A stretch of DNA of 64,000 nucleotides, taken from the NCBI RefSeq assembly GCF_044647545.1, contig NZ_CP172818.1. One strand, written 5' to 3'. A program made the translations under genes and the position numbers. Source of the DNA: Escherichia coli. Lineage in GTDB: Bacteria; Pseudomonadota; Gammaproteobacteria; Enterobacterales; Enterobacteriaceae. The notes under the pieces were generated by a model that did no database searches, had not been told where the DNA came from, and saw nothing but the letters and a program-made list of their open reading frames with translations. This document shows, one piece after another, positions 238 through 38,648 of this stretch (the first letter of the stretch is position 1; the number at the start of each line of letters is the position of its first letter).

Positions 238-263
238 CTGTCCAACTTTTTGGGGTCAGTACA
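1..263 (+). mobile_element. IS150 (IS3 family), 3' portion truncated by window edge; right inverted repeat ends near 263
   Basis: Reverse complement of 216-263 reads TGTACTGACCCCAAAAAGTTGGACAGTTAAACACGAGGC, recalled as the IS150 terminal repeat; the upstream ORF translates as an IS3-family OrfB C-terminus. Confidence 0.8.
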
Positions 264-5986: not shown

Positions 5987-6112
5987 CGAAAGACAAAACT
6001 GAAAAATGCCATTAACAAATGATTTTCAGAATAAATTCATACTAAATATTAATTAATTACTGAGATATATAGATGTGAATTATCCCCCACCCGGTCAGGC
6101 AGGGGATAACGT

Positions 6113-7567: not shown

Positions 7568-7638
7568 ATCGATCGTTCCTTAAAAAAATGCCCGGTATCG
7601 CTACTGATAACCGGGCCAACGGACTGCACAGTTAGCCG

Positions 7639-20528: not shown

Positions 20529-20728
20529 TTTGTCGCGTCCTGATGGTAGCGCAAAGTGTGCCGTAGTTCACGATCTCGACAGATAATTTATAACCACTTG
20601 ATTCTTAAGTTTTTTGAAATTCGTCAATCCGATTGCTTTGTTAAAAAGTGATCGATATATTTGAAATCAAGTTTCGCATATTGAAATTTTAAGCCAAAAA
20701 AGCGATCAAAAAAACAAGGAAACCTGGG

Positions 20729-21727
20729 ATGAAAGTGACATTTGAGCAGTTAAAAGCAGCCTTTAATCGGGTCTTAATTTCACGCGGCGTTGACAGCGAA
20801 ACGGCTGACGCCTGTGCAGAGATGTTCGCCCGCACCACCGAATCCGGCGTTTATTCTCACGGCGTTAATCGTTTCCCTCGTTTCATTCAACAACTGGAAA
20901 ACGGCGATATCATTCCTGATGCCCAACCCAAACGTATAACCAGCCTCGGCGCAATTGAACAGTGGGACGCTCAGCGTTCGATCGGTAACCTGACAGCGAA
21001 AAAGATGATGGATCGCGCCATTGAACTGGCTGCCGATCACGGTATTGGTCTGGTGGCACTACGTAATGCCAACCACTGGATGCGCGGCGGCAGCTACGGC
21101 TGGCAGGCGGCGGAAAAAGGCTATATTGGCATTTGCTGGACCAACTCCATCGCCGTAATGCCGCCGTGGGGCGCAAAAGAGTGTCGCATCGGCACCAACC
21201 CGCTGATCGTCGCCATTCCTTCTACCCCAATCACCATGGTCGATATGTCGATGTCGATGTTCTCTTACGGCATGTTAGAAGTTAACCGTCTGGCAGGCCG
21301 TCAGCTCCCGGTCGATGGTGGCTTTGATGATGAGGGCAATTTGACCAAAGAACCTGGCGTTATCGAGAAGAATCGCCGCATTTTGCCGATGGGCTACTGG
21401 AAAGGTTCTGGCATGTCGATTGTGCTGGATATGATCGCCACTCTCCTTTCCGACGGCGCATCGGTTGCCGAAGTCACCCAGGACAACAGCGACGAATACG
21501 GCGTTTCGCAAATCTTTATCGCCATCGAAGTGGATAAATTGATCGACGGCCCCACCCGCGATGCCAAGCTGCAACGCATCATGGATTACGTTACTACCGC
21601 TGAACGCGCTGACGAAAACCAGGCCATCCGCTTACCCGGCCACGAATTTACTACCCTGCTGGCCGAAAACCGCCGTAACGGCATCACTGTTGATGACAGC
21701 GTGTGGGCCAAAATCCAGGCGTTATGA
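20729..21727 (+). CDS. yiaK: 2,3-diketo-L-gulonate reductase
   Basis: 332-aa ORF, first gene of the operon. Confidence 0.92.
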
Positions 21728-21735
21728 GGAGATAA

Positions 21736-22206
<471 letters not shown>

Positions 22207-22323
22207 TCGAATAATCGTCTACGCCAGAACGCCTGGGTAATGTTATTGCTCTAACTATATTAATAATTTAGGTTGCTGCACATGCAACTTGAATTATGAC
22301 AGACATAGCCTCAAGGAATAGCT

Positions 22324-22797
22324 ATGAAAAAAATACTTGAAGCAATACTGGCGATTAATCTCGCCGTACTTTCCTGTATTGTGTTTATAAACATTATTTT
22401 AAGATATGGTTTTCAGACAAGCATTTTATCTGTAGATGAATTGTCACGTTATTTATTTGTCTGGTTAACATTTATTGGCGCGATTGTGGCTTTTATGGAT
22501 AACGCCCACGTTCAGGTCACCTTTCTGGTGGAGAAACTCTCCCCCGCATGGCAGCGACGAGTCGCTCTGGTTACCCATTCCTTAATCTTATTTATTTGTG
22601 GCGCACTGGCCTGGGGCGCAACGCTAAAAACAATTCAGGACTGGAGCGATTATTCACCGATCCTCGGTTTGCCCATCGGCCTGATGTATGCCGCTTGTCT
22701 GCCCACCAGCCTCGTTATCGCATTCTTTGAACTGCGTCATTTATATCAACTCATCACGCGTAGCAATTCTCTAACGTCGCCACCGCAAGGAGCTTAA
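22324..22797 (+). CDS. yiaM: TRAP transporter small permease (2,3-diketo-L-gulonate)
   Basis: 157-aa four-helix membrane ORF directly upstream of the large permease. Confidence 0.9.
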
Positions 22798-22799
22798 TC

Positions 22800-24077
22800 A
22801 TGGCTGTGCTGATTTTTCTGGGCTGTCTGTTGGGTGGTATTGCTATCGGTTTGCCTATTGCCTGGGCACTGTTGTTGTGCGGGGCGGCGTTAATGTTCTG
22901 GCTGGGCATGTTTGATGTCCAGATCATGGCACAAACGCTGGTGAACGGAGCCGACAGCTTCTCCCTGCTGGCGATTCCGTTCTTTGTGCTGGCGGGTGAA
23001 ATCATGAATGCGGGCGGCTTGTCAAAACGCATTGTTGACCTGCCGATGAAACTGGTGGGGCATAAACCAGGCGGGCTGGGCTACGTCGGCGTGCTGGCGG
23101 CTATGATTATGGCGAGCCTTTCTGGTTCTGCTGTTGCGGATACCGCCGCCGTTGCCGCGCTATTAGTGCCGATGATGCGCAGCGCTAACTACCCGGTCAA
23201 CCGTGCTGCGGGGCTGATTGCCTCTGGCGGCATTATCGCGCCAATTATTCCCCCTTCCATTCCGTTTATTATCTTCGGCGTTTCCAGCGGATTATCCATC
23301 AGCAAGCTGTTTATGGCGGGTGTTGCCCCAGGCATTATGATGGGCGCAACGCTGATGCTCACATGGTGGTGGCAGGCCAGTCGTCTTAATTTACCCCGTC
23401 AGCAAAAAGCAACGAAACGAGAAATCTGGCACTCTTTTGTTTCCGGTATCTGGGCGCTATTTCTTCCGGTCATTATTATTGGCGGCTTTCGCTCCGGTCT
23501 GTTTACCCCTACCGAAGCCGGGGCCGTTGCTGCTTTCTATGCGCTGTTTGTCGCCACAGTTATTTACCGTGAAATGACCTTCGCCACACTTTGGCATGTA
23601 CTCATTGGCGCGGCGAAAACCACCTCAGTGGTAATGTTTCTGGTGGCCTCGGCACAAGTTTCTGCCTGGCTGATTACCATTGCTGAACTGCCGATGATGG
23701 TTTCTGATTTACTGCAACCGTTGGTCGATTCACCGCGTCTGCTGTTTATCGTTATTATGCTGGCTATCCTGATTGTCGGCATGGTCATGGATTTAACGCC
23801 GACGGTGTTAATTCTTACTCCGGTATTAATGCCTTTAGTTAAAGAGGCAGGAATCGATCCGATTTATTTCGGTGTCATGTTTATCATTAACTGCTCAATC
23901 GGCTTAATTACACCGCCTATCGGTAATGTGCTTAACGTTATTTCAGGGGTGGCAAAACTCAAATTCGATGATGCAGTCAGAGGCGTTTTCCCTTACGTCC
24001 TGGTTTTATATTCATTATTAGTCGTATTTGTTTTTATTCCCGATCTCATCATCCTCCCTTTGAAATGGATTAATTAA
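22800..24077 (+). CDS. yiaN: TRAP transporter large permease
   Basis: 425-aa polytopic membrane ORF; 2-bp spacer after yiaM. Confidence 0.92.
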   Translation: MAVLIFLGCLLGGIAIGLPIAWALLLCGAALMFWLGMFDVQIMAQTLVNGADSFSLLAIPFFVLAGEIMNAGGLSKRIVDLPMKLVGHKPGGLGYVGVLAAMIMASLSGSAVADTAAVAALLVPMMRSANYPVNRAAGLIASGGIIAPIIPPSIPFIIFGVSSGLSISKLFMAGVAPGIMMGATLMLTWWWQASRLNLPRQQKATKREIWHSFVSGIWALFLPVIIIGGFRSGLFTPTEAGAVAAFYALFVATVIYREMTFATLWHVLIGAAKTTSVVMFLVASAQVSAWLITIAELPMMVSDLLQPLVDSPRLLFIVIMLAILIVGMVMDLTPTVLILTPVLMPLVKEAGIDPIYFGVMFIINCSIGLITPPIGNVLNVISGVAKLKFDDAVRGVFPYVLVLYSLLVVFVFIPDLIILPLKWIN

Positions 24078-24089
24078 AAGGAAAATATT

Positions 24090-25076
24090 ATGAAATTACG
24101 CTCTGTAACCTACGCATTATTCATTGCTGGCCTGGCTGCATTTAGTACATCTTCAATGGCGGCGCAATCTTTACGTTTCGGTTATGAAACCTCACAAACC
24201 GACTCGCAACATATTGCGGCGAAAAAATTCAATGATTTATTGCAGGAGAGAACCAAAGGCGAGCTGAAATTAAAACTGTTCCCGGACAGCACTCTCGGTA
24301 ACGCGCAGGCGATGATCAGCGGCGTACGTGGCGGCACCATCGATATGGAAATGTCCGGCTCGAATAACTTTGCCGGGTTATCACCAGTGATGAACTTGCT
24401 TGATGTCCCTTTCCTGTTCCGCGATACCGCTCACGCGCATAAAACGCTCGACGGCAAAGTCGGTGATGATCTGAAAGCCTCACTTGAAGGTAAAGGACTG
24501 AAAGTACTGGCCTACTGGGAAAACGGCTGGCGCGATGTCACCAACTCGCGCGCACCGGTTAAAACCCCCGCCGACCTGAAAGGGCTGAAAATCCGCACCA
24601 ACAATAGTCCGATGAATATCGCAGCATTCAAAGTCTTTGGCGCTAACCCGATCCCGATGCCGTTTGCCGAAGTCTATACCGGGCTGGAAACGCGCACTAT
24701 CGACGCTCAGGAACACCCGATCAACGTCGTCTGGTCAGCAAAATTTTTCGAAGTACAGAAGTACCTTTCTCTGACGCACCACGCCTATTCGCCACTTTTG
24801 GTGGTGATCAACAAAGCGAAGTTTGATGGCTTAAGCCCGGAATTCCAGCAGGCGCTGATCTCATCTGCGCAGGAAGCGGGTAACTACCAGCGCAAACTGG
24901 TTGCCGAAGATCAGCAAAAAATCATCGACGGCATGAAAGAAGCGGGCGTGGAAGTCATCACCGATCTCGACCGCAAAGCCTTTAGCGACGCACTGGGGAA
25001 TCAGGTTCGCGACATGTTTGTTAAAGATGTGCCGCAGGGAGCTGATCTGCTGAAAGCCGTGGATGAGGTGCAATAA
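24090..25076 (+). CDS. yiaO: TRAP transporter periplasmic solute-binding protein
   Basis: 328-aa ORF with signal peptide. Confidence 0.92.
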   Translation: MKLRSVTYALFIAGLAAFSTSSMAAQSLRFGYETSQTDSQHIAAKKFNDLLQERTKGELKLKLFPDSTLGNAQAMISGVRGGTIDMEMSGSNNFAGLSPVMNLLDVPFLFRDTAHAHKTLDGKVGDDLKASLEGKGLKVLAYWENGWRDVTNSRAPVKTPADLKGLKIRTNNSPMNIAAFKVFGANPIPMPFAEVYTGLETRTIDAQEHPINVVWSAKFFEVQKYLSLTHHAYSPLLVVINKAKFDGLSPEFQQALISSAQEAGNYQRKLVAEDQQKIIDGMKEAGVEVITDLDRKAFSDALGNQVRDMFVKDVPQGADLLKAVDEVQ

Positions 25077-25079
25077 ACC

Positions 25080-26576
25080 ATGACGCAATACTGGCTGGGG
25101 TTAGATTGTGGCGGTAGCTGGCTGAAAGCCGGGCTGTATGACCGCGAAGGCCGGGAGGCAGGCGTGCAGCGCCTGCCGCTGTGCGCATTAAGCCCGCAGC
25201 CAGGTTGGGCAGAGCGCGATATGGCAGAACTGTGGCAATGCTGCATGGCTATCATTCGCACCCTGCTTACTCATTCTGGTGTCAGCGGGGAACAAATTGT
25301 CGGTATCGGCATCTCCGCACAGGGAAAGGGCTTGTTTTTGCTGGATAAAAACGACAAGCCGCTCGGTAACGCCATTTTGTCCTCGGATCGCCGGGCGATG
25401 GAAATCGTTCGTCGCTGGCAGGAAGATGGCATCCCGGAAAAACTCTACCCGCTGACCCGACAAACCTTGTGGACCGGGCATCCGGTGTCGCTGTTACGCT
25501 GGCTGAAAGAGCACAAACCAGAACGCTACGCGCAAATTGGCTGCGTGATGATGACGCACGACTACCTGCGCTGGTGTTTAACCGGCGTCAAAGGTTGCGA
25601 AGAGAGCAATATTTCCGAGTCCAATCTCTACAACATGAGTCTTGAGGAATATGACCCGTGCCTCACCGACTGGCTGGGGATCGCTGAAATCAACCACGCC
25701 CTGCCGCCTGTTGTCGGATCTGCCGAAATCTGCGGGGAAATCACCGCTCAGACAGCCGCACTGACCGGTCTGAAAGCGGGTACGCCCATTGTCGGCGGCC
25801 TGTTTGATGTGGTTTCCACCGCACTCTGTGCCGGGATCGAAGACGAATTTACCCTTAATGCGGTGATGGGCACCTGGGCGGTGACCAGCGGCATAACCCG
25901 TGGTTTACGTGACGGTGAAGCGCATCCGTATGTCTATGGTCGCTACGTTAACGATGGTCAATTTATCGTTCACGAAGCCAGCCCCACCTCTTCCGGCAAC
26001 CTCGAATGGTTTACCGCACAGTGGGGAGAAATCTCGTTTGATGAGATTAACCAGGCCGTTGCCAGCTTGCCAAAGGCCGGGGGCGATCTCTTTTTCCTGC
26101 CGTTCCTGTACGGCAGCAACGCCGGACTCGAGATGACCAGCGGTTTCTACGGGATGCAGGCCATTCACACCCGCGCACACCTGTTGCAGGCCATTTATGA
26201 AGGCGTGGTGTTCAGCCATATGACCCATCTCAACCGGATGCGCGAACGTTTTACTGATGTGCACACCCTGCGCGTCACTGGCGGCCCGGCGCACTCCGAT
26301 GTCTGGATGCAAATGCTGGCGGACGTCAGCGGGCTGCGTATCGAACTGCCGCAGGTGGAAGAAACCGGCTGCTTTGGTGCGGCACTTGCCGCCCGCGTCG
26401 GCACCGGAGTTTATCGCGATTTCAGCGAAGCCCAACGTGATTTACAGCACCCGGTACGCACCCTGCAGCCGGATATGACCGCACATCAGCTTTACCAACA
26501 AAAATACCAACGTTATCAGCATCTCATTGCCGCACTTCAGGGCTTTCACGCCCGCATCAAGGAGCACACATTATGA
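25080..26576 (+). CDS. lyxK: L-xylulose/3-keto-L-gulonate kinase
   Basis: 498-aa FGGY-family kinase. Confidence 0.93.
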   Translation: MTQYWLGLDCGGSWLKAGLYDREGREAGVQRLPLCALSPQPGWAERDMAELWQCCMAIIRTLLTHSGVSGEQIVGIGISAQGKGLFLLDKNDKPLGNAILSSDRRAMEIVRRWQEDGIPEKLYPLTRQTLWTGHPVSLLRWLKEHKPERYAQIGCVMMTHDYLRWCLTGVKGCEESNISESNLYNMSLEEYDPCLTDWLGIAEINHALPPVVGSAEICGEITAQTAALTGLKAGTPIVGGLFDVVSTALCAGIEDEFTLNAVMGTWAVTSGITRGLRDGEAHPYVYGRYVNDGQFIVHEASPTSSGNLEWFTAQWGEISFDEINQAVASLPKAGGDLFFLPFLYGSNAGLEMTSGFYGMQAIHTRAHLLQAIYEGVVFSHMTHLNRMRERFTDVHTLRVTGGPAHSDVWMQMLADVSGLRIELPQVEETGCFGAALAARVGTGVYRDFSEAQRDLQHPVRTLQPDMTAHQLYQQKYQRYQHLIAALQGFHARIKEHTL

Positions 26577-27235
26577 GCCGACCACTTCTGCAACTGGCCC
26601 TCGACCACTCATCACTTGAAGACGCACAGCGCGACGTGACGCTGTTAAAAGACAGCGTCGATATCGTCGAAGCGGGCACCATTCTCTGCTTAAACGAAGG
26701 GCTTGGCGCAGTGAAAGCCTTGCGCGAACAGTGCCCGAACAAAATCATCGTCGCTGACTGGAAGGTCGCCGACGCGGGTGAAACGCTCGCGCAACAGGCG
26801 TTTGGCGCAGGCGCTAACTGGATGACCATCATCTGCGCCGCACCGCTCGCGACGGTGGAAAAAGGCCACGCGATGGCGCAACGCTGCGGTGGTGAAATTC
26901 AGATCGAGTTGTTCGGTAACTGGACGCTGGACGACGCCCGCGACTGGCATCGTATTGGCGTGCGGCAGGCCATTTATCATCGCGGTCGCGACGCGCAGGC
27001 CAGCGGGCAACAGTGGGGGGAGGCCGATCTGGCACGCATGAAGGCGCTTTCCGATATCGGCCTTGAGCTTTCCATTACCGGCGGTATTACTCCTGCTGAT
27101 CTGCCACTGTTTAAAGATATCCGCGTAAAGGCGTTTATTGCCGGACGGGCGCTGGCAGGCGCGGCAAATCCGGTGCAGGTGGCTGGCGATTTCCATGCAC
27201 AAATTGATGCCATCTGGGGAGGTGCGCGTGCGTAA
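26573..27235 (+). CDS. sgbH: 3-keto-L-gulonate-6-phosphate decarboxylase
   Basis: 220-aa ORF; ATGA start/stop overlap with lyxK. Confidence 0.93.
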
Positions 27236-28088
27236 TCATCCGTTAGGGATTTATGAAAAAGCGCTGGCGAAAGATCTCTCCTGGCCGGAGCGGCTGGTGC
27301 TGGCAAAAAGCTGTGGCTTTGATTTTGTCGAAATGTCGGTGGATGAAACCGACGAACGGCTCTCACGTCTTGACTGGAGCGCCGCACAACGTGCTTCGCT
27401 GGTCACTGCGATGATCGAAACGGGTGTTGCCATTCCGTCAATGTGCCTGTCTGCCCATCGTCGTTTTCCCTTTGGCAGCCGGGACGAGGCAGTGCGCGAA
27501 CGGGCGCGGGAAATCATGAGTAAAGCGATTCGCCTGGCGCGCGATCTCGGCATTCGCACCATCCAGCTGGCAGGTTATGACGTCTATTACGAAGACCACG
27601 ACGAAGGCACCCAACAACGTTTTGCTGAAGGGCTGGCGTGGGCAGTCGAACAGGCGGCGGCATCACAAGTCATGCTGGCGGTGGAGATTATGGATACCGC
27701 GTTTATGAACTCCATCAGCAAATGGAAAAAATGGGACGAGATGCTCGCCTCGCCGTGGTTCACCGTCTACCCGGACGTCGGCAACCTCAGCGCCTGGGGC
27801 AATGATGTTCCCGCCGAACTGAAACTGGGCATTGACCGTATCGCCGCGATCCACCTGAAAGACACCCTGCCAGTCACCGGGCAAAGCCCCGGACAGTTCC
27901 GTGATGTGCCGTTTGGCGAAGGCTGCGTCGATTTCGTTGGCATCTTCAAAACGCTGCATGAACTGAACTATCGCGGATCATTTCTGATTGAGATGTGGAC
28001 CGAAAAAGCCAAAGAGCCGGTGCTGGAGATTATTCAGGCGCGGCGCTGGATTGAAGCGCGTATGCAGGAGGCCGGATTTATATGTTAG
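27228..28088 (+). CDS. sgbU: L-xylulose-5-phosphate 3-epimerase
   Basis: ORF 27138..28088; start set at GTG 27228 giving [13 protein letters not shown]..., 286 aa; overlaps sgbH by 8 nt. Confidence 0.9.
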
Positions 28089-28777
28089 AGCAACTAAAAG
28101 CCGACGTGCTGGCGGCGAATCTGGCGCTTCCCGTTCATCATCTGGTGACGTTCACCTGGGGCAATGTCAGCGCGGTAGACGAAACGCGGCAATGGATGGT
28201 AATCAAACCTTCCGGCGTCGAGTACAACGTGATGACCGCCGACGATATGGTAGTGGTTGAGATAGCCACCGGTAAGGTGGTGGAAGGCAGAAAAAAACCC
28301 TCGTCCGACACGCCAACGCATCTGGCGCTTTACCGTCGCTATGCCGAAATTGGCGGTATTGTGCATACCCACTCGCGCCACGCCACCATCTGGTCGCAGG
28401 CCGGGCTGGATCTCCCCGCCTGGGGCACCACGCACGCTGATTACTTCTATGGTGCCATCCCCTGCACGCGACAGATGACCGCAGAGGAGATCAACGGCGA
28501 GTATGAATACCAGACCGGCGAAGTGATCATTAAAACCTTCGAAGAACGTGGGTTGAACCCGGCACAAATCCCGGCTGTACTGGTGCATTCTCACGGCCCG
28601 TTCGCCTGGGGAAAAAACGCCGCCGATGCGGTGCATAACGCCGTGGTGCTGGAAGAGTGCGCCTATATGGGCCTGTTCTCGCGCCAGCTTGCACCGCAGC
28701 TCCCTGCGATGCAAAACGAACTGCTGGATAAGCACTACCTGCGTAAACATGGGGCCAATGCCTATTACGGGCAGTAA
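28082..28777 (+). CDS. sgbE: L-ribulose-5-phosphate 4-epimerase
   Basis: 231-aa class II aldolase/epimerase ORF; 7-nt overlap with sgbU. Confidence 0.93.
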
Positions 28778-28807
28778 TCCCTCACGCCGGGGCTTCATTG
28801 CCCCGGC

Positions 28808-28915
28808 ACTACGAATTGATATGTTCCTTGCTGTAACGTCGCTTCCACGCAGCTGGCGTTAAGCCGGTGTGTTTGCGAAAAATCTGCCGGAAATAGCCGA
28901 CGTCATTAAACCGTA
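28808..28915 (-). pseudogene. AraC/XylS-family regulator C-terminal remnant (HTH fragment, frame interrupted upstream)
   Basis: Minus-strand translation ...LAVVGLFQAIRFNDVGYFRQIFRKHTGLTPAAWKRRYSKEHINS* fits the AraC C-terminal HTH pattern; an in-frame TGA lies just upstream. Confidence 0.35.
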
Positions 28916-29123
28916 TTGCCTGGAACAGGCCGACAACGGCGAGTCACTGCATAACCTGTGGCTGCCCGCCGATGCGCCATTTACGACATTTGAAGGTAAT
29001 GGATTGTTCCGCCATAAGATCTTAATCCAGGCACCGGGTTACCGGTATGAACAGAGCAATCCAGAGCAGCAACCGCTGTGGCATTACGACAGTGCGCCAG
29101 CCGCACCGACATCCACCGGTGAA

Positions 29124-29864
29124 TTAAAAACGCCAGCTCACCCCGGTGACAAAGGTAAAACTCTCATTACGATCAATCATCGGGCTGTCGGTAATCTCTT
29201 CCGGCAGCTCGCTGTATCCTGCGCTCGCCATCAATACGACGTGCTCTCCTATCGGGTATTTTGCCGTCAGGCTGACATAGGGCACCCAGGCATCCTGCGC
29301 GGAATAACTTGCCAGACCGCTACGACGGGACTCACTCTCTGAAATGCCATAGTAATAGTCACTGAAATTCTCGTCATAATAGAGAACGCCCAGCGCAGGT
29401 GTCAGCGACAGACGACCTATCTGCATTTTGTGGAATACCGATAGCTCCCCCACCCAGCCGTTGCTGTTATCCAGAACGTCCGCAGCTGCAGAGGCTTTCA
29501 CGGTTCCCCAACGCTCGTGGTGATACCAGGCAACCCCCGCCATAGCCGTACTATCACGCTTATCAAGCTGTTGCATGGCATAATCGTCATTATCGGTAGG
29601 GTCAAATTCCAGCGGCATCCAGGATGCGGTCAGGCTAAGTTCATTTTTTTCACTTTGCGACAGAATAAAACCTAACGTGGTCTGACGAACATAAAAAGTA
29701 TCACCTTCATAACTAATCAGCGGAATTGCCTTCGTATTTTCATTATAACCGCGATAAGGCGATTCATTATAAGCCGCACCAGCACCAATGGATAATTCAG
29801 AAGCAGTTGCGCTTGCCATAAAAGGCAACGCAAATAACGCCACAATATTGCGATTAATTAACAT
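29124..29864 (-). CDS. yiaT: Outer membrane protein (MipA/OmpV family)
   Basis: 246-aa ORF with signal peptide, beta-strand-like alternation and C-terminal F. Confidence 0.88.
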   Translation of the reverse strand: MLINRNIVALFALPFMASATASELSIGAGAAYNESPYRGYNENTKAIPLISYEGDTFYVRQTTLGFILSQSEKNELSLTASWMPLEFDPTDNDDYAMQQLDKRDSTAMAGVAWYHHERWGTVKASAAADVLDNSNGWVGELSVFHKMQIGRLSLTPALGVLYYDENFSDYYYGISESESRRSGLASYSAQDAWVPYVSLTAKYPIGEHVVLMASAGYSELPEEITDSPMIDRNESFTFVTGVSWRF

Positions 29865-29987
29865 GTCCGGTATTCCATTTTAAAATAAGATAAAAAAGAG
29901 TCGGCATAATAATGCTTACAATTTCTCCGGTGCAAGATTCATATTTATATAGTAATATATAAAATTATATATAATTGGGCTGTTGCG

Positions 29988-30962
29988 ATGACAAAATTAC
30001 AACTTAAGTACCGGGAGTTAAAAATTATCTCGGTAATCGCTGCCAGTGAAAATATCAGCCATGCCGCGACTGTACTTGGCATCGCACAGGCCAACGTCAG
30101 CAAATATCTTGCTGATTTTGAATCAAAAGTGGGTTTAAAAGTCTTTGACCGAACCACCCGGCAGCTGATGCTCACACCTTTTGGCACCGCGCTGTTACCG
30201 TACATCAACGACATGCTGGACAGAAACGAGCAACTTAATAATTTTATTGCAGATTATAAGCATGAGAAACGTGGTCGGGTCACCATCTACGCCCCAACCG
30301 GCATAATTACCTATTTATCCAAACATGTAATCGATAAAATTAAAGATATCGGTGATATCACCTTATCGCTAAAAACCTGCAATCTTGAGCGTAATGCCTT
30401 TTATGAAGGCGTCGAATTTCCTGATGATTGTGATGTTTTAATCAGCTACGCTCCACCAAAAGATGAATCGCTGGTTGCCAGTTTTATTACCCAATATGCC
30501 GTAACCGCTTATGCCAGCCAGCGCTATCTTGAGAAACATCCCATTAGCCGTCCTGACGAACTCGAACATCACTCCTGTATTTTGATCGACTCGATGATGA
30601 TCGACGACGCGAATATCTGGCGCTTCAACGTCGCCGGGAGTAAAGAGGTGCGGGATTATCGCGTGAAGGGAAATTACGTTTGCGACAACACGCAATCTGC
30701 GCTGGAGCTGGCACGAAATCACCTGGGGATTGTGTTTGCGCCAGACAAAAGTGTGCAGAGCGACCTGCAAGACGGCACGCTGGTGCCCTGCTTTCAGCAA
30801 CCCTATGAATGGTGGCTGGATCTGGTGGCTATCTTCCGTAAACGGGAATACCAGCCCTGGCGGGTCCAGTATGTGCTGGATGAAATGCTGCGTGAAATTC
30901 GCCACCAGCTTGCTCAGTCGCAGCAACTGCGGCCTGAACAAGCGGCGGAAAGCGAAGATTAA
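29988..30962 (+). CDS. yiaU: LysR-family transcriptional regulator
   Basis: 324-aa ORF with N-terminal LysR HTH; divergent-convergent with yiaT/yiaV. Confidence 0.9.
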
Positions 30963-32095
30963 TGATCGAGATAAAGGTAATGCACCCAGCTGGTCATGCG
31001 TAATAGCACTTTGCGCATCACCGAGACATGGCTGAAATGATCAGAGTAAACCGCCACCTGGGCGTAAATACCGTCTGGTAAAGCGCTCAAATCAGTGTGC
31101 TCATCCAGTTCAATGGTCGCGATAACGCCATCTGAACCCGGCGCTGTGTTTAACGTCTGTAAGGTGCCGGTCGACTGATAAGCTCCGCCGGGAACGGCTG
31201 GACTAATGGCTGCCAGCTTACCGCTGAATACCTTACCTGGCAGAGCATTAAACACCACTTCCGCATCGTCGCCAGGAGCCAGTCGCAGCAAGGAGTTCTG
31301 ACGGAACTGCGCCACGATTTGTCGTTTCTGATCGGGTATAAACACCATCACCGGACGTAGCGGCAGCGACGCGGCATAGGTACCCGGACGAATCAGTACC
31401 TGGGTCACATAACCATCGCTCGGCGCACGCACTATCGTCTGCTCAAGGTTATATTTTGCTTCCGCGAGCTGTGCTTTCAGGCTGGCGATTTGAGAATGTT
31501 CACCCAACACCAGGCTATCCAGCTGGCTCTGGATCTGTTTTTGTTCCGCCGCCGATGACTTCACGGAGGCTTCCTGCGCCAGATAATTTTGCCGCGCCAC
31601 ATCGATATCGCGTTCTGAAAACGGGTTTACTTTCGCCTGGCTGCCACGTGCGTAACGCTGATACTCTTTAGCGAATTTATCCCGCGTGGCCTTTGCCTGC
31701 TGAGTATTCGCCGCCATCTCATCTAACTCTGCGCCCAACGCCCGCTGTTTATGTTCTGCGGTAACGATATCCGCCATCAGCCGATCCACCCGCGCCTGAT
31801 AACGCGTCGGGTCCAGTCGAAATAGCACCTCACCTTTTTTAATCAGCGTATTTTTCTTATCCGTCACTTCAATCACCACACCAGTCACCTGTGGGACAAC
31901 AGGAATAGAAATAACCGCTTTTTGCGCTTTAAAGGTATACGGATGGTTATAGTTCATTAACAGAATTAGACCGCTGACAATAAATATGCCACCCAGGGCC
32001 GCTGTGGGAATGGTCCATTTATTTACAGGAATTTTGAAGATCTTAAACATTGCCCATGCAAAAGCCACATAGGTCAAAATAATCAGTAAATCCAT
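30959..32095 (-). CDS. yiaV: HlyD-family membrane fusion protein
   Basis: 378-aa ORF, N-terminal TM, coiled-coil middle; paralog of yibH. Confidence 0.9.
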
Positions 32096-32100
32096 AAGTA

Positions 32101-32326
32101 TTACTCGGCAGAAGAGGTCTTGATGTCGGCGAGCTGTTTCTCCAGCCCGGCAATACGCTGTTGTAGTTGCACAACGCCGGAGGAGTCATGGTTTTGCATT
32201 CCCCATCCCCGCTCCGGGCGGTAAAGCGTGGCCCAAATCCACAAAATGGCCAGATAACATGCAGCGTAAAAAGACTCACCCAACCAGCAACATGAATGGC
32301 GTCGGCATGAGGATGATTACGTTTTG
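32101..32326 (-). pseudogene. yiaW: yiaW (DUF3302 small membrane protein), C-terminal part, separated from its 5' part by IS1
   Basis: Translation ...[46 protein letters not shown] matches the YibI paralog; reading frame runs into the IS1 left end. Confidence 0.8.
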
Positions 32327-32351
32327 GTGATGCTGCCAACTTACTGATTTA

Positions 32352-32657
32352 GTGTATGATGGTGTTTTTGAGGTGCTCCAGTGGCTTCTGTTTCTATCAG
32401 CTGTCCCTCCTGTTCAGCTACTTGACGGGGTGGTGCGTAACGGCAAAAGCACCGCCGGACATCAGCGTTATCTCTGCTCTCACTGCCGTAAAACATGGCA
32501 ACTGCAGTTCACTTACACCGCTTCTCAACCCGGTACGCACCAGAAAATCATTGATATGGCCATGAATGGCGTTGGATGCCGGGCAACCGCCCGCATTATG
32601 GGCGTTGGCCTCAACGCGATTTTACGTCACTTAAAAAACTCAGGCCGCAGTCGGTAA
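32352..32657 (+). CDS. insA: IS1 InsA-like ORF (body in frame with ...[23 protein letters not shown]...; N-terminus out of frame with the canonical GTG start at 32381)
   Basis: ORF-track translation; canonical-looking start GTG 32381 [14 protein letters not shown] reaches TGA at 32423. Confidence 0.7.
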
Positions 32658-33079
32658 CCTCGCGCATACAGCCGGGCAGTGACGTCATCGTCTGCGCGGA
32701 AATGGACGAACAGTGGGGCTATGTCGGGGCTAAATCGCGCCAGCGCTGGCTGTTTTACGCGTATGACAGGCTCCGGAAGACGGTTGTTGCGCACGTATTC
32801 GGTGAACGCACTATGGCGACGCTGGGGCGTCTTATGAGCCTGCTGTCACCCTTTGACGTGGTGATATGGATGACGGATGGCTGGCCGCTGTATGAATCCC
32901 GCCTGAAGGGAAAGCTGCACGTAATCAGCAAGCGATATACGCAGCGAATTGAGCGGCATAACCTGAATCTGAGGCAGCACCTGGCACGGCTGGGACGGAA
33001 GTCGCTGTCGTTCTCAAAATCGGTGGAGCTGCATGACAAAGTCATCGGGCATTATCTGAACATAAAACACTATCAATAA
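32576..33079 (+). CDS. insB: IS1 InsB transposase frame
   Basis: 167-aa ORF ...[21 protein letters not shown]...[48 protein letters not shown]. Confidence 0.85.
32631..32641 (+). promoter_or_regulatory. IS1 programmed -1 ribosomal frameshift motif (A6C) joining insA and insB
   Basis: ttaaaaaactc at the insA/insB junction. Confidence 0.6.
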
Positions 33080-33094
33080 GTTGGAGTCATTACC

Positions 33095-33204
33095 TTACGT
33101 TTTTTAGCAATCAGGTAGGGAATATCATGTAAAATAATAATCCCATAGAATATCACCAGAAATACAAAAATAAGCACTCCCAGTGCAAAATAGTCCAGGA
33201 ACAT
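33095..33204 (-). pseudogene. yiaW: yiaW 5' part ([37 protein letters not shown]...), separated from the 3' part by IS1
   Basis: Reverse complement of 33104-33204 encodes the N-terminus homologous to YibI; joining the two parts minus one TSD copy restores a 109-codon frame. Confidence 0.8.
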
Positions 33205-33317
33205 ATTTCCCTCAAAGAATATAAAAAAGAACAATTAACGCATATTATGAAATGCCATGATGCAGTGCAACTTCCTTATTTATATAACGACATATTGTTT
33301 TTTATATACTTTCTGAA

Positions 33318-33530
33318 ATGTGCTGTCTGGTTTTTCAACAGGACGAGGTTTATCATATTGAAATAGTGGAACTATTGGCCAAACTAATGAATAACTCCAG
33401 TAAAACATCCACAGTACAGATTAAGCGTATTAAACCTTCAATTATCTACCGTTTATTGCTGATTGGCCTCGGATCACCAATGGTGATTTACGGCCTGGTT
33501 CGCCCGCTAACCATCGAAACGCGAGATTAA
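33318..33530 (+). CDS. Hypothetical small ORF with a C-terminal hydrophobic segment (possible small membrane protein)
   Basis: 70-aa ORF; internal Met gives a 47-aa peptide MNNSSKTSTVQIKRIKPSIIYRLLLIGLGSPMVIYGLV...; no recognisable homology. Confidence 0.2.
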   Translation: MCCLVFQQDEVYHIEIVELLAKLMNNSSKTSTVQIKRIKPSIIYRLLLIGLGSPMVIYGLVRPLTIETRD

Positions 33531-33638
33531 ACGCCCGGCAATACACGCCGGGCAGCTTCTGCCAGAAACGCACTTCTGTTGGCGTAGTCTGGGTTATTGC
33601 GCACGTAGGTTTAAAACGTAAATTGTAACAACGTGCGC

Positions 33639-33735
33639 TTTGTTTATGCCGGATGCGGCGTGTACCTTATCCGGCCTACGGTCAGGTTCCCGTAGGCATG
33701 ATAAGACGCGTAAGCGTCGCATCAGGCAATGAATA
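33639..33735. repeat. REP elements downstream of aldB
   Basis: gccggatgcggcgtgtaccttatccggcctacgg and gacgcgtaagcgtcgcatcaggc palindromes. Confidence 0.5.
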
Positions 33736-33758
33736 CCCAATGCGACCAGCTTCTTACA

Positions 33759-35297
33759 TCAGAACAGCCCCAACGGTTTATCCGAGTAGCTCACCAGCAG
33801 GCACTTGGTTTGCTGGTAATGCTCAAGCATCATCTTATGGGTTTCGCGTCCGATGCCCGACTGTTTGTAGCCGCCAAACGCCGCATGTGCCGGGTAAGCG
33901 TGATAACAGTTGGTCCACACGCGCCCGGCCTGAATGCCGCGCCCCATCTTATAGGCCAGATTACCGTTGCGGCTCCAGACACCCGCGCCCAGGCCATATT
34001 GCGTGTCGTTCGCCAGCTCCAGCGCCTCGTCCATCGTTTTGAAGGTGGTTACCGCCAGCACCGGACCAAAAATCTCCTCCTGGAACACGCGCATATTATT
34101 CTGACCAAACAAAATCGTCGGTTCGAGGTAGTAACCGTCTTTCAGTTCGCCTTCCAGCAGCTTGCGCCGCCCGCCGGTGAGCACGTCTGCGCCCTCTTTT
34201 TTACCAATATCAATGTAGTTGAGGATGGTTTCCAGTTGCCCGTGAGAAACCTGCGCCCCCATTTGCGTCACGCTGTCGAGCGGGTTACCGCTGCGAATGC
34301 TTTCGACACGGCGGATGGCGCGTTCCATAAAGCGTTCGTAGATAGACTCCTGCACTAAAGCACGGCTTGGACAGGTGCAAACTTCGCCCTGGTTAAAGGC
34401 AAACAGTGCAAAGCCTTCCAGCGCTTTATCGAAAAAGGCATCTTCTTCATCCATCACATCAGCAAAGAAGATATTTGGGGATTTGCCGCCCAGCTCCAGC
34501 GTCACCGGAATAATGTTTTGCGTGGCGTACTGCATAATTTGTTGGCCCACTTCCGTTGAGCCGGTAAACGCCACTTTGGCGATGCGTTTCGAGGTCGCCA
34601 GATATTCGCCAATTTCTCCGCCCGCACCGTTGACCACGTTCACCACGCCCGGCGGCAGTAAATCACCGACGATTTCCATTAGCAGCAGTACTGAGAGCGG
34701 GGTAAGACGTGCGGGTTTCAGCACCACACAGTTGCCCGCCGCCAGCGCGGGAGCCATTTTCCAGCTCGCCATCAGCAGCGGGAAGTTCCACGGAATAATC
34801 TGCCCCACCACGCCTAACGGTTCGTGGAAGTGATAAGCCACAGTTTCGCTATCCACTTCACTAATACCGCCTTCCTGCGCCCGAATACACGAGGCAAAAT
34901 AGCGAAAATGGTCAATCGCCAGCGGCACATCAGCAGCACTGGTTTCGCGAATGGGTTTGCCGTTATCCCAGGTTTCAGCGGTCGCTAACAGTTCGAGGTT
35001 CTGCTCCATCCGATCGGCAATCTTAAACAGAATCGCCGCGCGATCCTGCACCGAAGTATGCGCCCATTTATCTTTCACTTTGTGCGCAGCATCCAGCGCC
35101 AGATCGATGTCTCGTTTGCCCGAAGACGCCACTTCGCACAGCAGCTGTCCGGTCACCGGCGTCAGGTTCTGGTAATACTCGCCGTCGGCAGGGGCTACCC
35201 ATTCGCCGCCAATAAAGTTGTCGTAGCGGGCTTTTAACTTGAGGGGGAAACCATACTCGCCGGGCTTAATCTGTGCTGAAGGGGGATTATTGGTCAT
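33759..35297 (-). CDS. aldB: Aldehyde dehydrogenase B
   Basis: ORF 33759..35435; start set at [17 protein letters not shown] giving 512 aa. Confidence 0.93.
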
Positions 35298-35461
35298 GAT
35301 CGTCTCCTTGCGGTGTGAGGTATAACAAGGGTAGACGTGACTGGCGAAATCTTCGCCAGTCGATAACAGCTTTACGACGGCTATCACGAATTTACGGGCA
35401 AGGGTTACAGAGATAGTTGAAAAAGCGGCTGACAACTCGCCAGCCGTTGCGGGAATGATGA

Positions 35462-36613
35462 TTACATTGCGGCGCGATAAATCGCCACAATTTCTTCGTG
35501 AGTTGCCTGGATCGGGTTAGTAAAGCCACAGGCATCTTTCAGGGCATTAGTCGCCAGTACCGCGAAATCTTCTTCTTTCACGTTCAGGTCACGCAGGCCT
35601 GCCGGGATATCCACTTTCTTCGCCAGTTCACGGATGGCGTTAATGCAGGCTTCAGCACCTTCCGCGTCGTTTTTACCAGTCACGTTCACGCCCATTGCAG
35701 CGGCACAGTCACGCAGACGTGCTGCAGCGACTTTGCTATTGAATACCTGAACGTGTGGCAGCAGAACAGCATTACATACACCGTGTGGCAGGTTGTAGAA
35801 ACCGCCCAGCTGGTGCGCCATCGCATGAACATAACCCAGAGAAGCATTATTGAACGCCATACCGGCGAGGAACTGGGCATAAGCCATTGCTTCACGCGCT
35901 TTAGCATTGCTGCCATCTTCAACGGCTAACGGCAGATTTTCGGCAATCATGGTCACCGCTTTCAGTGCGCAAGCGTCAGTGATCGGCGTGGCGGCAATAG
36001 AAACATACGCTTCGATAGCGTGCGTTAAGGCATCCATACCCGTTGCGGCGGTCAGTGACTTCGGCATACCGATCATCAGAGAGGAGTCATTGACAGAAAG
36101 CAACGGAGTTACATGTTTATCAACAATCGCCATTTTGATATGACGCGCTTCGTCAGTGATGATGCAGAAACGGGTCATTTCAGAGGCCGTACCCGCCGTG
36201 GTATTGATGGCGATCATCGGCAGCTGCGGTTTTGCAGAGCGGTCAACGCCTTCGTAATCGCGAATATCGCCGCCATTGGCTGCCACCAGCGCAATACCTT
36301 TTGCGCAGTCGTGCGGAGAACCACCGCCTAAGGAGATCACGCTATCGCAATTATTTTCTTTAAGTAATTTCAAACCTGCGGCGACGTTTTCCGTGGTGGG
36401 GTTAGGTTGGGTGCCATCATAAATAACGCTAAAAATATTGCGTTCTTCCAGTGCTTTTTGCACATCACCCGCCATACCCAATTTCGTTAACATATTGTCG
36501 GTGACAATTAAGGTACGGGTAAATCCATAATCTGCCATCATATTCATTGCATCATTCAATGAATCAGCACCAATAACATTCACGGAAGGAATAAAAAAGG
36601 TTGAAGCTGCCAT
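35462..36613 (-). CDS. yiaY: Iron-containing alcohol dehydrogenase
   Basis: 383-aa ORF with Fe-ADH motifs ([16 protein letters not shown]). Confidence 0.9.
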
Positions 36614-36803
36614 AACACACTCCTGAAAGTGTAAAAAAGGGCGGGCAGCTTACTGAGGATTTTCATTTGAAAATATGATCAACATTACCGTTTATTAAAA
36701 TATTTTTAATAAAAAGCACGTTACATTCATCAAATAACGTGCCTTCTTAACATTAATAAGAAATTTTGTATTAATTCATATTTATTATGAATTAATCATT
36801 TCC

Positions 36804-38648
36804 TTATTTTTCCGGAAATAATAATGCGTCGCGCAATAAATGATCATTTCCACGACGACGCGTAAAGCCAATGCGGTCAAAATATTCCAGAATCTGAATT
36901 GCCAGCTTTCGGCCTACGCCTAAGCGATCGCGGAAATCCGCCGCGCAGGTTGAACCACACTCCTGATCGAGATCGCGGATCATATTGGCAAACTCGACAA
37001 TCCGATCGTTACGGTAATAACGATCTTTGACGATCGCGGTAATTATTCCTTGCTGCGCCGCCTGACGTAGCGTCAGACGCATTGCCTGCTCGTCGGTTCC
37101 CGTCTCTTTTGCCAGGTCTCGCACCCACCACGGTTCGTCACCAAACAGTGGCTCTGCTTTTTGCCAGATGGCCTGCTGCTCTTCGCTGAAGCCCGCTTTG
37201 TGATCCGGCAGATGCAGCCAGCCGTGATGACTGAGGATGTCACCGCTTTCACGCATCTTTTCAATCAGCAACAGTACCAGCGCTTCATCTTCCATTGGCA
37301 ACGCCATACGTCGCAGACGTTCGCGCCCAGGACCAGGTTCATCGCGATGTTTCTCATGATAAGTCGCTAATGTGTCGAGAATTTTCCGCTGCCAGCGGGC
37401 GGCAACTGGCGCATTCAACAAGCTGTAACCAGCCTGAATATAGCCAGGCTGTTGCAGCAGTTCGCGCATCCCTTCGCCGTTGAGCTGCCGTGCCCAGGCG
37501 AAATCCGCAAGGTTAACCGCGCCGCGTTCCAGATGAACAGATAACGCATCGGCATCGCTCTGCGCCCGTGCAAGAGACGCCAGCCATTGCAGATATTCCG
37601 GCTTACGCTTACCGCGACGCGGCGGGTTAAGCATCACCACACGCGCCCCCGCCAGCGTGTTGCGGGCCGAGATATCGCGCAGCACTATGCGATCGTTATC
37701 CGCCAGCCACAGCGGCGTGTCGAACACCAGCTCGGCAAGGTTATCTTCCAGCAGCGAAACGCGTCCCGTAACGTGGCTGGCGGCGTGGTGAATATGCAGT
37801 GGCTGCCACTGGGTCAGCGGTGTATGGGTTTGAAGCTCGACTATCACCCGCGTAAACGGCTCCGGCGGCACATCGGCAAGCAGCCAGTCGCCACGGTTAA
37901 TCTGCTCTTTTTCCGCATCACCCGCGATGTTAAGCGCGATACGCTGCCCGGCATGGGCAGTTTCTGTTGGCTGATTTTGCGCATGTAGCGCACGCACGCG
38001 CATCGGTTTATTTACACCAGTCAGCCAGATTGAATCGCCTACCTTCACTTCCCCGCTTAACGCCGTACCGGTGACGACCAGCCCGGCACCTTTTACGGTA
38101 AATGCGCGGTCGATCGCGAGGCGGAAACTATGTTGGCTGGCGTGTTCACGTTCTGGTAACTGAAGCAAATGCTCGCGCAGGGCATCAATTCCCCGACCTT
38201 CGGTTGCTGCGGTGATAAACAGTTTTGCCTCAGCAAAACCGTATTCCCGCAGCACCTCCTTTACCTGGCGTTCAACCTCATCAACACGCGCTTCGTCCAC
38301 GCGATCGGCTTTGGTCAGCGCCACTGTCAGCATCGGGTTACCGGTCAGCTGCAAAATCGCCAGATGCTCACGGGTCTGTGCCATCACGCCGTCATCGCAC
38401 GCCACCACCAACAGCGCGTGATCGATACCACCAACGCCCGCCAGCATGTTGGAAAGAAACTTTTCATGACCGGGAACGTCGATAAAACCCGGAACACGAC
38501 CATCCGGCTGCGGCCAGTAGGCATAGCCGAGATCGATGGTCATGCCGCGCTTTTTTTCTTCCGGCAGACGGTCGGCATTTACGCCAGTAATCGCCTGCAA
38601 TAAGGTTGTTTTGCCGTGGTCAACGTGTCCGGCAGTCGCAATAATCAT
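36804..38648 (-). CDS. selB: Selenocysteine-specific translation elongation factor
   Basis: 614-aa ORF starting [16 protein letters not shown] (GTPase G1 motif). Confidence 0.95.

What the first reader, a model, noticed from the sequence alone, without database searches (positions are those of the whole stretch)
28808..28915. AraC-family regulator remnant between sgbE and yiaT
The minus strand encodes a textbook AraC C-terminal HTH tail (...FNDVGYFRQIFRKHTGLTPAAWKRRYSKEHINS*) but the frame is broken by a TGA just upstream. This looks like the relic of a regulator that once sat next to the L-lyxose/ascorbate-type operon. It may correspond to an annotated reference pseudogene, which I cannot confirm. 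The long plus-strand ORF 28869..29342 overlapping this region and yiaT is probably spurious.
Basis: seen in the sequence. Interest (0 to 1): 0.35.

Follow-up and report, generated by a model that had tools for sequence, protein, structure and literature searches.

The report
Known ysaC/ysaD deletion scar
The AraC-like tail is real but already known: it is E. coli pseudogene ysaC, one of two leftover pieces (with ysaD) of a three-gene plant-sugar cassette, deleted in about half of sequenced E. coli strains and not broken by a stop codon.

Summary
Window 28809-28910 (minus strand) encodes the last 33 residues and stop of a 271-aa AraC-family regulator.

The TGA at 28944-28946 is not a nonsense mutation. 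AraC homology stops at a blunt deletion junction (J1, 28912|28913), and the sequence beyond it is the antisense of a 190-bp internal piece of a GH127 beta-L-arabinofuranosidase gene (28913-29102, plus strand). A second, 216-bp deletion between two GCCAGCC repeats (J2) joins that piece to the yiaT side.

Intact strains (E. coli B, RS571) and 20 other enterobacterial species carry sgbE | AraC <- -> GPH transporter -> GH127 | yiaT.

The K-12 reference record annotates the remnants as pseudogenes ysaC (b4648) and ysaD (b4649). 2,460 of 5,426 complete genomes carry the scar.

The "spurious" plus-strand ORF contains the ysaD relic in frame.

One oddity remains. This window's scar has the canonical junctions but the SNPs of an intact allele, unlike all 32 other scars read base by base. 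Together with garbled sequence elsewhere in the window, I think this most likely reflects a chimeric or templated assembly.

Verdict: ordinary, non-functional and already known.

The parts
28082..28777 (+). sgbE (L-ribulose-5-phosphate 4-epimerase), last gene of the yiaK-sgbE operon; left neighbour, intact
   Evidence: ORF list; annotation of colinear K-12 and RS571 loci
28786..28807 (.). GC-rich hairpin GCCGGGGC-TTCATT-GCCCCGGC between the convergent sgbE and AraC stop codons; spared by the deletion. It probably serves as a shared transcript end (inferred; no U-tract)
   Evidence: RNA fold dG -20.6 kcal/mol, z -3.5, 0 of 200 shuffles as stable; identical in intact loci; a weak sub-threshold Rfam hit to a CRISPR repeat model is due to the palindrome
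28809..28910 (-). ysaC' : last 33 codons plus stop (residues 239-271 of 271) of an AraC-family regulator; DNA homology to the intact gene runs 28808-28912
   Evidence: annotated pseudogene in K-12
28912..28913 (.). Junction J1: blunt join with 0 bp microhomology. 4,021 bp are missing: AraC codons 1-238, the 225-bp divergent promoter region, the whole GPH transporter gene, and GH127 codons 1-558
   Evidence: base-by-base alignment to E. coli B (L004) and RS571 (L002); the tail-to-fragment gap is 4,021 bp in 10 of 11 intact loci (4,022 in L011, where the alignment began at base 2 of the fragment) and 0 in all scars
28913..29102 (+). ysaD' : internal fragment of a GH127 beta-L-arabinofuranosidase gene (residues 559-621 of 659, C-terminal domain); annotated in K-12 as 28914-29105 equivalent
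   Evidence: 190/190 identical to RS571 GH127; Pfam Glyco_hydro127C E 2.6e-3
29096..29102 (.). Junction J2: the single remaining copy of GCCAGCC. In intact loci two copies 216 bp apart flank the last 39 GH127 codons and a REP-like intergenic element, so this was a microhomology-mediated deletion
   Evidence: L004 6184-6190 and 6400-6406
29103..29123 (.). last 21 bp of the original GH127-yiaT intergenic region
   Evidence: identical to L004 6407-6427 and to K-12
29124..29864 (-). yiaT (MipA/OmpV family outer-membrane protein); right neighbour, intact
28869..29342 (+). 157-codon ORF that is not a gene: 15 codons antisense to ysaC, then the 63 ysaD relic codons in frame, then antisense of yiaT
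   Evidence: the K-12 version is recorded as a called gene in only 10 short contigs

Best explanation
The feature is the left half of a two-piece deletion scar, known in E. coli K-12 as pseudogenes ysaC and ysaD. The ancestral enterobacterial arrangement was sgbE -> | <- AraC-family regulator | divergent promoter | GPH-family sugar:cation symporter -> GH127 beta-L-arabinofuranosidase -> | <- yiaT. I infer that this was a regulator-transporter-hydrolase module for taking up and splitting beta-L-arabinofuranosides from plant glycoproteins. One illegitimate 4,021-bp deletion (J1, no microhomology) removed everything from AraC codon 238 to GH127 codon 558. A second 216-bp deletion between two GCCAGCC repeats (J2) removed the GH127 3' end and a REP-like element. 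What remains is 33 AraC codons, 63 GH127 codons and the hairpin after sgbE. It has no start codon, no promoter and no complete domain, so it does nothing beyond leaving the sgbE 3' hairpin in place. The scar arose once, long ago, and is now carried by about 45% of sequenced E. coli. Separately, this window's copy carries the SNPs of an intact allele on the canonical junctions. I consider this most likely (about 0.65) a product of a chimeric or templated genome assembly rather than of biology.
For: Sequence and homology:
- 105/105 and 190/190 identity to intact RS571 genes.
- Pfam hits for both relics. The intact proteins show full AraC_binding+HTH_18, MFS_2/GPH, and GH127 catalytic, middle and C-terminal domains.
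- The GH127 protein is close to solved beta-L-arabinofuranosidases: 4QJY E 6e-232 and HypBA1 3WKW E 1e-150, with the ExC and CACCPPN motifs aligned.

Annotation:
- NC_000913.3 lists ysaC b4648 and ysaD b4649 at the equivalent coordinates.
- PGAP marks both as partial pseudogenes.
- A strain table gives the order yiaS-ysaC...ysaD-yiaT.

The intact state is ancestral:
- The AraC+GPH+GH127 trio is present in 73 of 79 species-level loci.
- The full sgbU-sgbE|AraC|GPH-GH127|yiaT-yiaU context is present in 20 of them.

Distribution among 5,426 complete genomes:
- 2,460 carry the scar.
- 2,313 carry tail and fragment apart, i.e. the cassette.
- 12 have a single partial match.
- 641 have no match.

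Single old origin:
- All 32 other scars read base by base (7, 18 metagenome contigs, 7) share both junctions and differ from K-12 by 0-6 bases, yet by 20-30 from every intact allele.
- 17 fixed scar-specific changes all lie in the fragment and none in the tail (P = 0.0008).

Assembly doubt:
- The window equals RS571 (104 mismatches in 64 kb).
- It lacks all six large RS571-specific insertions.
- It is 100% K-12-identical in two RS571-absent segments (2,885 bp and 95 bp).
- RS571-type SNPs run to within 13 bp or less of K-12-type junctions.
- 295 small, G-biased deletions garble 44.6-45.6 and 47.6-49.3 kb.
Against: - Nothing contradicts the identity of the relic.
- The substrate of the lost cassette is inferred from homology only. 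NCBIfam's best model for the hydrolase is 'aceric acid hydrolase', well below its cut-off (451 vs 950 bits), so the specificity could differ.
- Relaxed constraint on the scar is only a trend. Codon positions were 5:3:9 on the scar branch against 4:1:18 among intact alleles (Fisher p = 0.17).
- Against the assembly-artefact reading: the window also contains an IS1 in yiaW with a clean 9-bp duplication and a natural-looking third allele at 31988-33755, neither of which is K-12 or RS571. A simple 'K-12 template plus RS571 reads' model therefore does not explain everything. I have no reads to test it.
Confidence: 0.93

Rival explanations
1. One reading: a full-length regulator gene decayed in place, its frame interrupted by a TGA point mutation, with the rest of the gene still lying upstream in degraded form.
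For: An in-frame TGA does lie 12 codons upstream of the F.
Against: AraC homology ends abruptly at 28912. The next 190 bp are 100% identical to GH127 codons 559-621 on the other strand. The intact gene reads ...SLTEVAALCG|FNDV whereas the window reads ...LAVVGLFQAIR|FNDV. Only 346 bp separate sgbE and yiaT, so there is no room for a 816-bp gene.
Confidence: 0.01
2. The window's scar is physically real as written: a strain with RS571-type sequence right up to both canonical junctions. This would need either an independent second occurrence of both deletions at the same nucleotides, or transfer of the junctions from a canonical-scar donor with crossovers within about 13 bp (left) and about 7 bp (right) of J1 and within about 6 bp of J2.
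For: One RefSeq complete genome (Z1322HEC0006) shows the same phenomenon on a different background: canonical junctions with 0/105 and 0/190 differences from intact E. coli B, and B-type flanks. J2 has 7-bp microhomology and could recur. The region is a natural recombination patchwork. The window has features that no simple template explains, namely the IS1 in yiaW and a third allele at 31988-33755.
Against: J1 is blunt with no repeat, so exact recurrence is wildly improbable. Homologous exchange needs more than 7-13 bp. Every one of the 33 contigs read that carry this exact sgbE protein has the intact cassette. 2,459 of 2,460 genome scars are 92.8% identical or less to the window's, and all 32 scars read base by base are canonical. 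The same 'RS571 SNPs on K-12 structure' pattern recurs at the Fic and YadA-island sites 6 and 28 kb away. The window also contains clearly corrupted sequence.
Confidence: 0.25
3. The remnant has been co-opted: it encodes a small protein or an RNA (for example the 157-codon plus ORF, or an antisense or 3'-UTR RNA of sgbE or yiaT).
For: A stable hairpin; one promoter-like site at 29146-29173; an uninterrupted 157-codon ORF in window, K-12 and Z1322HEC0006.
Against: Promoter and terminator counts are at shuffle expectation. No Rfam family reaches threshold. The ORF's K-12 version has 7 amino-acid changes in the 63 relic codons compared with intact alleles and is almost never called as a gene. The K-12 locus is used as a neutral site for reporter insertion.
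Confidence: 0.03

Closest known systems
E. coli K-12 pseudogenes ysaC (b4648) and ysaD (b4649)
   Same: Same position between sgbE and yiaT, same strands, same lengths (102 nt and about 190 nt), and the same two junctions to the base.
   Different: Sequence is only 91.6% identical over the 346 bp (28 differences in the 295 bp of relic). The window's copy matches the intact RS571 allele instead.
Intact AraC-family regulator next to sgbE (e.g. WP_000891828.1 in E. coli B, WP_022646253.1 in RS571)
   Same: The window's 33 codons are residues 239-271 of this 271-aa protein, 100% identical to the RS571 copy. The convergent arrangement with sgbE and the shared hairpin are the same.
   Different: The window lacks residues 1-238: the whole AraC_binding (cupin) domain, the first helix-turn-helix and most of the second.
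GH127 beta-L-arabinofuranosidases (Bifidobacterium longum HypBA1, PDB 3WKW; the 4QJY enzyme)
   Same: The intact E. coli protein aligns end to end with both (E 1e-150 and 6e-232) and keeps the cysteine-rich active-site and zinc motifs. It has the same three Pfam domains.
   Different: No enzymology exists for the E. coli protein. The genetic context differs: a GPH symporter and an AraC regulator, rather than the ABC transporter cluster described for B. longum (PMC7263609 abstract). In this window only 63 non-catalytic residues survive.
araC / araBAD-type sugar-responsive activators
   Same: The intact protein has the AraC domain order (cupin ligand domain plus C-terminal double HTH). Its best NCBIfam match is AraC itself, and it is divergently transcribed from the genes it presumably controls.
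   Different: The score is far below the AraC equivalog cut-off (59.9 vs 208 bits), so it is not an AraC ortholog. Its ligand and operator are unknown.

Membership tests
AraC/XylS-family transcriptional regulator (as a gene remnant) | C-terminal ~100-aa DNA-binding domain with two helix-turn-helix motifs (Pfam HTH_18 / HTH_AraC) | tested here: inconclusive
   Only profile positions 56-80 of 80 are present (E 1.1e-4, below the gathering score because of length). Homology is proven instead by 105/105 nt identity to the intact gene. So it derives from this family but does not contain the domain.
AraC/XylS-family transcriptional regulator (as a gene remnant) | N-terminal ligand-binding/dimerisation domain and an intact reading frame with a start codon | tested here: not met
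   Residues 1-238 are deleted at J1. The intact ortholog has AraC_binding at residues 26-132.
K-12 pseudogene pair ysaC/ysaD | Located between sgbE and yiaT with junctions J1 and J2 at the same nucleotides | tested here: met
   Ungapped colinearity with K-12 across 28778-29123; NC_000913.3 annotation.
K-12 pseudogene pair ysaC/ysaD | Belongs to the canonical scar haplotype lineage (0-6 differences from K-12 over the 295-bp relic: 105-bp tail plus 190-bp fragment) | tested here: not met
   28 differences from K-12 and 0 from intact RS571. All 32 other scars examined are canonical.
Glycoside hydrolase family 127 (for 28913-29102) | Catalytic (alpha/alpha)6 domain with Cys nucleophile and Zn site; middle and C-terminal beta-sandwich domains | tested here: not met
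   Only residues 559-621 (part of the C-terminal domain) remain. The Pfam Glyco_hydro127C match is partial, E 2.6e-3. The catalytic domain (residues 12-427 in the intact protein) is deleted.
Microhomology-mediated deletion | Short direct repeat at both ends of the lost segment, with one copy retained | tested here: met
   J2: GCCAGCC at L004 6184-6190 and 6400-6406, with one copy in the scar. J1 does not meet this feature (0 bp shared).

The most novel reading that the evidence does not exclude
The scar in this window (and in strain Z1322HEC0006) is physically real. That would mean the two canonical deletion junctions have moved onto intact-type allelic backgrounds without carrying a single flanking SNP, or the same 4,021-bp blunt deletion has recurred. 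Either case would imply an unrecognised, precise process, such as conversion of large heterologies independent of neighbouring mismatches, or a site-specific excision of the AraC-GPH-GH127 module.
Probability: 0.12. Interest if true: 0.55.

Novelty: already known. Interest (0 to 1): 0.13.

Why it matters
As biology it matters little. ysaC and ysaD are catalogued K-12 pseudogenes, and the K-12 site is used as a neutral integration locus.

Three modest points of value:
- The relic marks a common presence/absence polymorphism (about 45% scar, about 43% cassette) of a probable beta-L-arabinofuranoside utilisation module. Published surveys find its GH127 gene to be clade-dependent and, in one study, associated with epithelial invasion (10.1101/2021.10.19.464957; PMC11879602). 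Knowing the exact junctions gives a simple PCR or k-mer marker for the two states.
- The 190-bp ysaD piece is enclosed by two heterologies and accumulates private changes, while the ysaC tail does not. This is a small natural illustration of how structural differences isolate DNA from recombination.
- The mismatch between junctions and SNPs, together with the garbled rhs/ISAs1 segments, warns that this window's assembly may be chimeric. Other findings from the same window should be read with that in mind.

Tried and rejected
- Looking for other assemblies with the window-type scar through the exact product of ORF 28869-29342 found nothing. The control showed that the K-12 version is recorded in only 10 short contigs and the Z1322HEC0006 version in none, so this test carries no information.
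- Trying to identify the source assembly through the window's YiaV protein failed because the protein is ubiquitous (70,198 blocks).
- Searching for a complete genome matching the non-RS571 middle segment 29103-33755 or the 18-kb neighbourhood gave none better than 99.0% (in pieces) and 98.2%.
- A simple 'K-12 MG1655 template' model was considered and only partly fits. 31988-33755, the IS1 in yiaW, and two ~115-bp K-12-specific REP-like segments that the window lacks do not follow K-12.
- Codon-position and synonymous/non-synonymous tests for relaxed constraint on the scar branch were not significant (p = 0.17 and 0.50).
- Promoter and terminator scans and Rfam gave nothing above background.
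- Repeats that could explain a recurrent J1 were looked for by eye in the breakpoint sequences and none was found.

Full report
**1. What is in the sequence**

sgbE ends at 28777 and yiaT, on the minus strand, ends at 29124, leaving 346 bp between them. On the minus strand this interval reads Q*LAVVGLFQAIRFNDVGYFRQIFRKHTGLTPAAWKRRYSKEHINS*. The 33 residues from FNDV to the stop (28809-28910) match the end of the AraC-type DNA-binding domain: Pfam HTH_18 positions 56-80 of 80 (E 1.1e-4) and HTH_AraC (E 1.3e-4).

**2. What it really is**

A megablast of the 346 bp against 5,426 complete E. coli genomes split them into two classes:
- 2,460 genomes match the whole interval.
- About 2,313 match it in two separate places: bases 27-135 at the 3' end of an intact 'AraC family transcriptional regulator', and bases 136-325 inside a 'glycoside hydrolase family 127 protein' gene.

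In E. coli B the order is sgbE -> | <- AraC-family gene (271 aa) | GPH/MFS transporter (466 aa) -> GH127 (659 aa) -> | <- yiaT. RS571 has the same cassette, but a HicBA/restriction island replaces yiaT-yiaW.

Base-by-base alignment gives the following.
- AraC homology runs 28808-28912 (residues 239-271).
- At 28912|28913 there is a blunt junction (J1) with no shared bases.
- J1 removed 4,021 bp: AraC codons 1-238, the 225-bp divergent intergenic region, the whole transporter gene and GH127 codons 1-558.
- 28913-29102 is GH127 codons 559-621 on the plus strand.
- At 29096-29102 a single GCCAGCC remains where intact loci have two copies 216 bp apart (J2). This deletion removed the last 39 GH127 codons and a REP-like element.
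- The last 21 bp before yiaT are original intergenic sequence.

It follows that the TGA at 28944-28946 lies in the antisense of the GH127 fragment and is not a mutation of the regulator. The intact protein reads ...SLTEVAALCG|FNDV at that point.

**3. Already known**

- NC_000913.3 annotates pseudogene ysaC (b4648, 102 nt, minus) and pseudogene ysaD (b4649, 192 nt, plus) between sgbE and yiaT.
- PGAP marks them as a partial AraC-family regulator and a partial hypothetical protein.
- A published strain table uses 'yiaS-ysaC:...::ysaD-yiaT' as a chromosomal insertion site for a reporter (PMC12361893).

**4. What was lost**

- The regulator has AraC_binding plus HTH_18 domains. Its best NCBIfam match is AraC, but far below the equivalog cut-off.
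- The transporter is a glycoside-pentoside-hexuronide:cation symporter, YagG-like.
- The hydrolase has all three GH127 domains. It aligns end to end with solved beta-L-arabinofuranosidases (4QJY, E 6e-232; HypBA1 3WKW, E 1e-150), with the ExC and CACCPPN motifs conserved in the printed alignment.

I infer, from homology only, a module that imports a beta-L-arabinofuranoside and releases L-arabinose under control of the divergent activator.

In one genome per species, 73 of 79 loci that encode a relative of the regulator keep the trio together. Twenty loci (Enterobacter, Lelliottia, Citrobacter, Huaxiibacter and Pseudocitrobacter) keep the whole sgbU-sgbE|AraC|GPH-GH127|yiaT-yiaU arrangement, with the AraC and sgbE ends 9-15 bp apart. 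The intact state is therefore ancestral and the scar is derived.

Published surveys already note GH127 as a variable, clade-dependent E. coli gene. One study links it to invasiveness.

**5. Age and origin of the scar**

Over the 295 relic bases, the canonical scar differs by 0-6 bases among the 32 sequences I read: 7 genome loci, 18 metagenome contigs found with a J1-spanning pattern and 7 more loci. It differs by 20-30 bases from every intact allele. Intact alleles differ from each other by at most 15.

Seventeen changes are fixed in scars and absent from all intact alleles.
- They fall 5:3:9 on codon positions, with 7 non-synonymous. Intact alleles show 4:1:18. This is a trend towards lost constraint, but it is not significant (p = 0.17).
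- All 17 lie in the GH127 fragment and none in the AraC tail (P = 0.0008).

I read this as follows. The tail is contiguous with sgbE and can still be homogenised by recombination. The fragment, bounded by J1 and J2, is isolated. Between K-12 and E. coli B the immediate flanks differ by about 0.5% while the relic differs by 8.5%. The scar branch (23 differences from the intact consensus) is nearly as long as the distance from E. coli to E. whittamii in the same segment (30-31). So the deletion happened once, and long ago.

**6. The oddity of this window**

The window's scar has the canonical junctions, yet it has 0/105 and 0/190 differences from the intact RS571 genes and 28 differences from K-12. 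No complete genome has a full-length scar more than 96.2% identical to it. The single 96.2% case, Z1322HEC0006, is itself a scar carrying the exact SNPs of the intact E. coli B allele.

Across the whole window:
- The sequence equals RS571 (104 mismatches, against 1,852 to K-12).
- It lacks every large RS571-specific insertion: the cassette, the HicBA/RM island, a Fic gene, an IS1 in yiaY, an ISAs1 and a 6.5-kb YadA-like island.
- Two segments that RS571 lacks (29103-31987 and 57389-57483) are 100% K-12-identical.
- RS571-type SNPs run to within 13 bp or less of the K-12-type junctions.
- All 33 contigs read that encode this exact sgbE protein carry the intact cassette.
- 44.6-45.6 kb and 47.6-49.3 kb are RS571 sequence with 295 small, G-biased deletions, which is a quality artefact.

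A blunt junction cannot plausibly recur, and homologous exchange cannot plausibly occur within 7-13 bp. I therefore favour a chimeric or templated assembly, with structure from a K-12-like source and bases from an RS571-like strain, at about 0.65.

This is not proven. The window also has an IS1 in yiaW with a clean 9-bp duplication and a third allele at 31988-33755, which that model does not predict.

**7. Function and verdict**

I found no evidence for any present function of the relic.
- Promoter-like and terminator-like sites are at shuffle expectation.
- No RNA family reaches threshold.
- The only structured element is the hairpin at 28786-28807 between the convergent stops. It is also present in intact loci and was spared by the deletion.

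The finding is a correct sighting of a known pseudogene with an incorrect mechanism. The regulator was truncated by a large deletion, not by a stop codon, and its neighbour on the other strand is the second piece of the same scar.

Noticed in passing
window 44600-45600 and 47600-49300: Very AT-rich (22-30% GC) stretches with no ORF of 80 aa or more between 47341 and 49284 and, for ~47.7-49.0 kb, no megablast hit in 5,426 complete E. coli genomes. A sensitive alignment shows RS571's rhs-tip/ISAs1 sequence with 295 small deletions (mostly 1-3 nt; deleted bases G 261, T 122, C 111, A 59), while 45.6-47.6 kb between them is a perfect match. This looks like corrupted consensus sequence.
   Followed up: partly
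window 253-28912, 29097-31987, 33756-39845, 57389-57483: The window is a mosaic. It is about 100% RS571-like almost everywhere, but exactly K-12-identical in two segments that RS571 lacks, and it is missing six RS571-specific insertions (cassette, HicBA/RM island, Fic at ~35410, IS1 in yiaY, ISAs1, 6.5-kb YadA-like island). No complete genome matches 20000-38000 better than 98.2%.
   Followed up: partly
window 32326-33094: IS1 inserted in yiaW with a 9-bp target duplication TTACGTTTT. It is absent from K-12 and, with yiaW itself, from RS571. A few other strains have IS1 in yiaW.
   Followed up: partly
L003 (NZ_CP148573.1, strain Z1322HEC0006) 2531-2825: The only one of 2,460 scar-bearing complete genomes whose scar has intact-type SNPs (identical to E. 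coli B's intact genes) on the canonical junctions, with B-type flanks. It is the same anomaly as the window, on a different background.
   Followed up: partly
L005 (strain 119) 1734-2691 and L006 (strain C9) 5864-8626: Other decay routes at the same locus. In strain 119 the cassette is intact but the whole yiaK-sgbE operon is gone, leaving a yiaJ remnant abutting the AraC gene. In C9 an IS1 has removed most of the transporter gene, GH127, yiaT and part of yiaU.
   Followed up: no
L004 6308-6427 (E. coli B), absent from window: The GH127-yiaT intergenic region of intact strains contains REP-like palindromic sequence (GCCTGATGCGACGCTT...GTCTTATCAGGC). Most of it was removed by the J2 deletion.
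   Followed up: no
window 1-252: The window starts inside an IS150 copy in the K-12 orientation. RS571 has IS150 at the same boundary but annotated on the opposite strand.
   Followed up: no
L124 11093-13073 (ENA metagenome contig): An otherwise intact cassette in which GH127 is called as two genes (402 + 277 aa). This could be an independent frameshift inactivation or a sequencing error.
   Followed up: no
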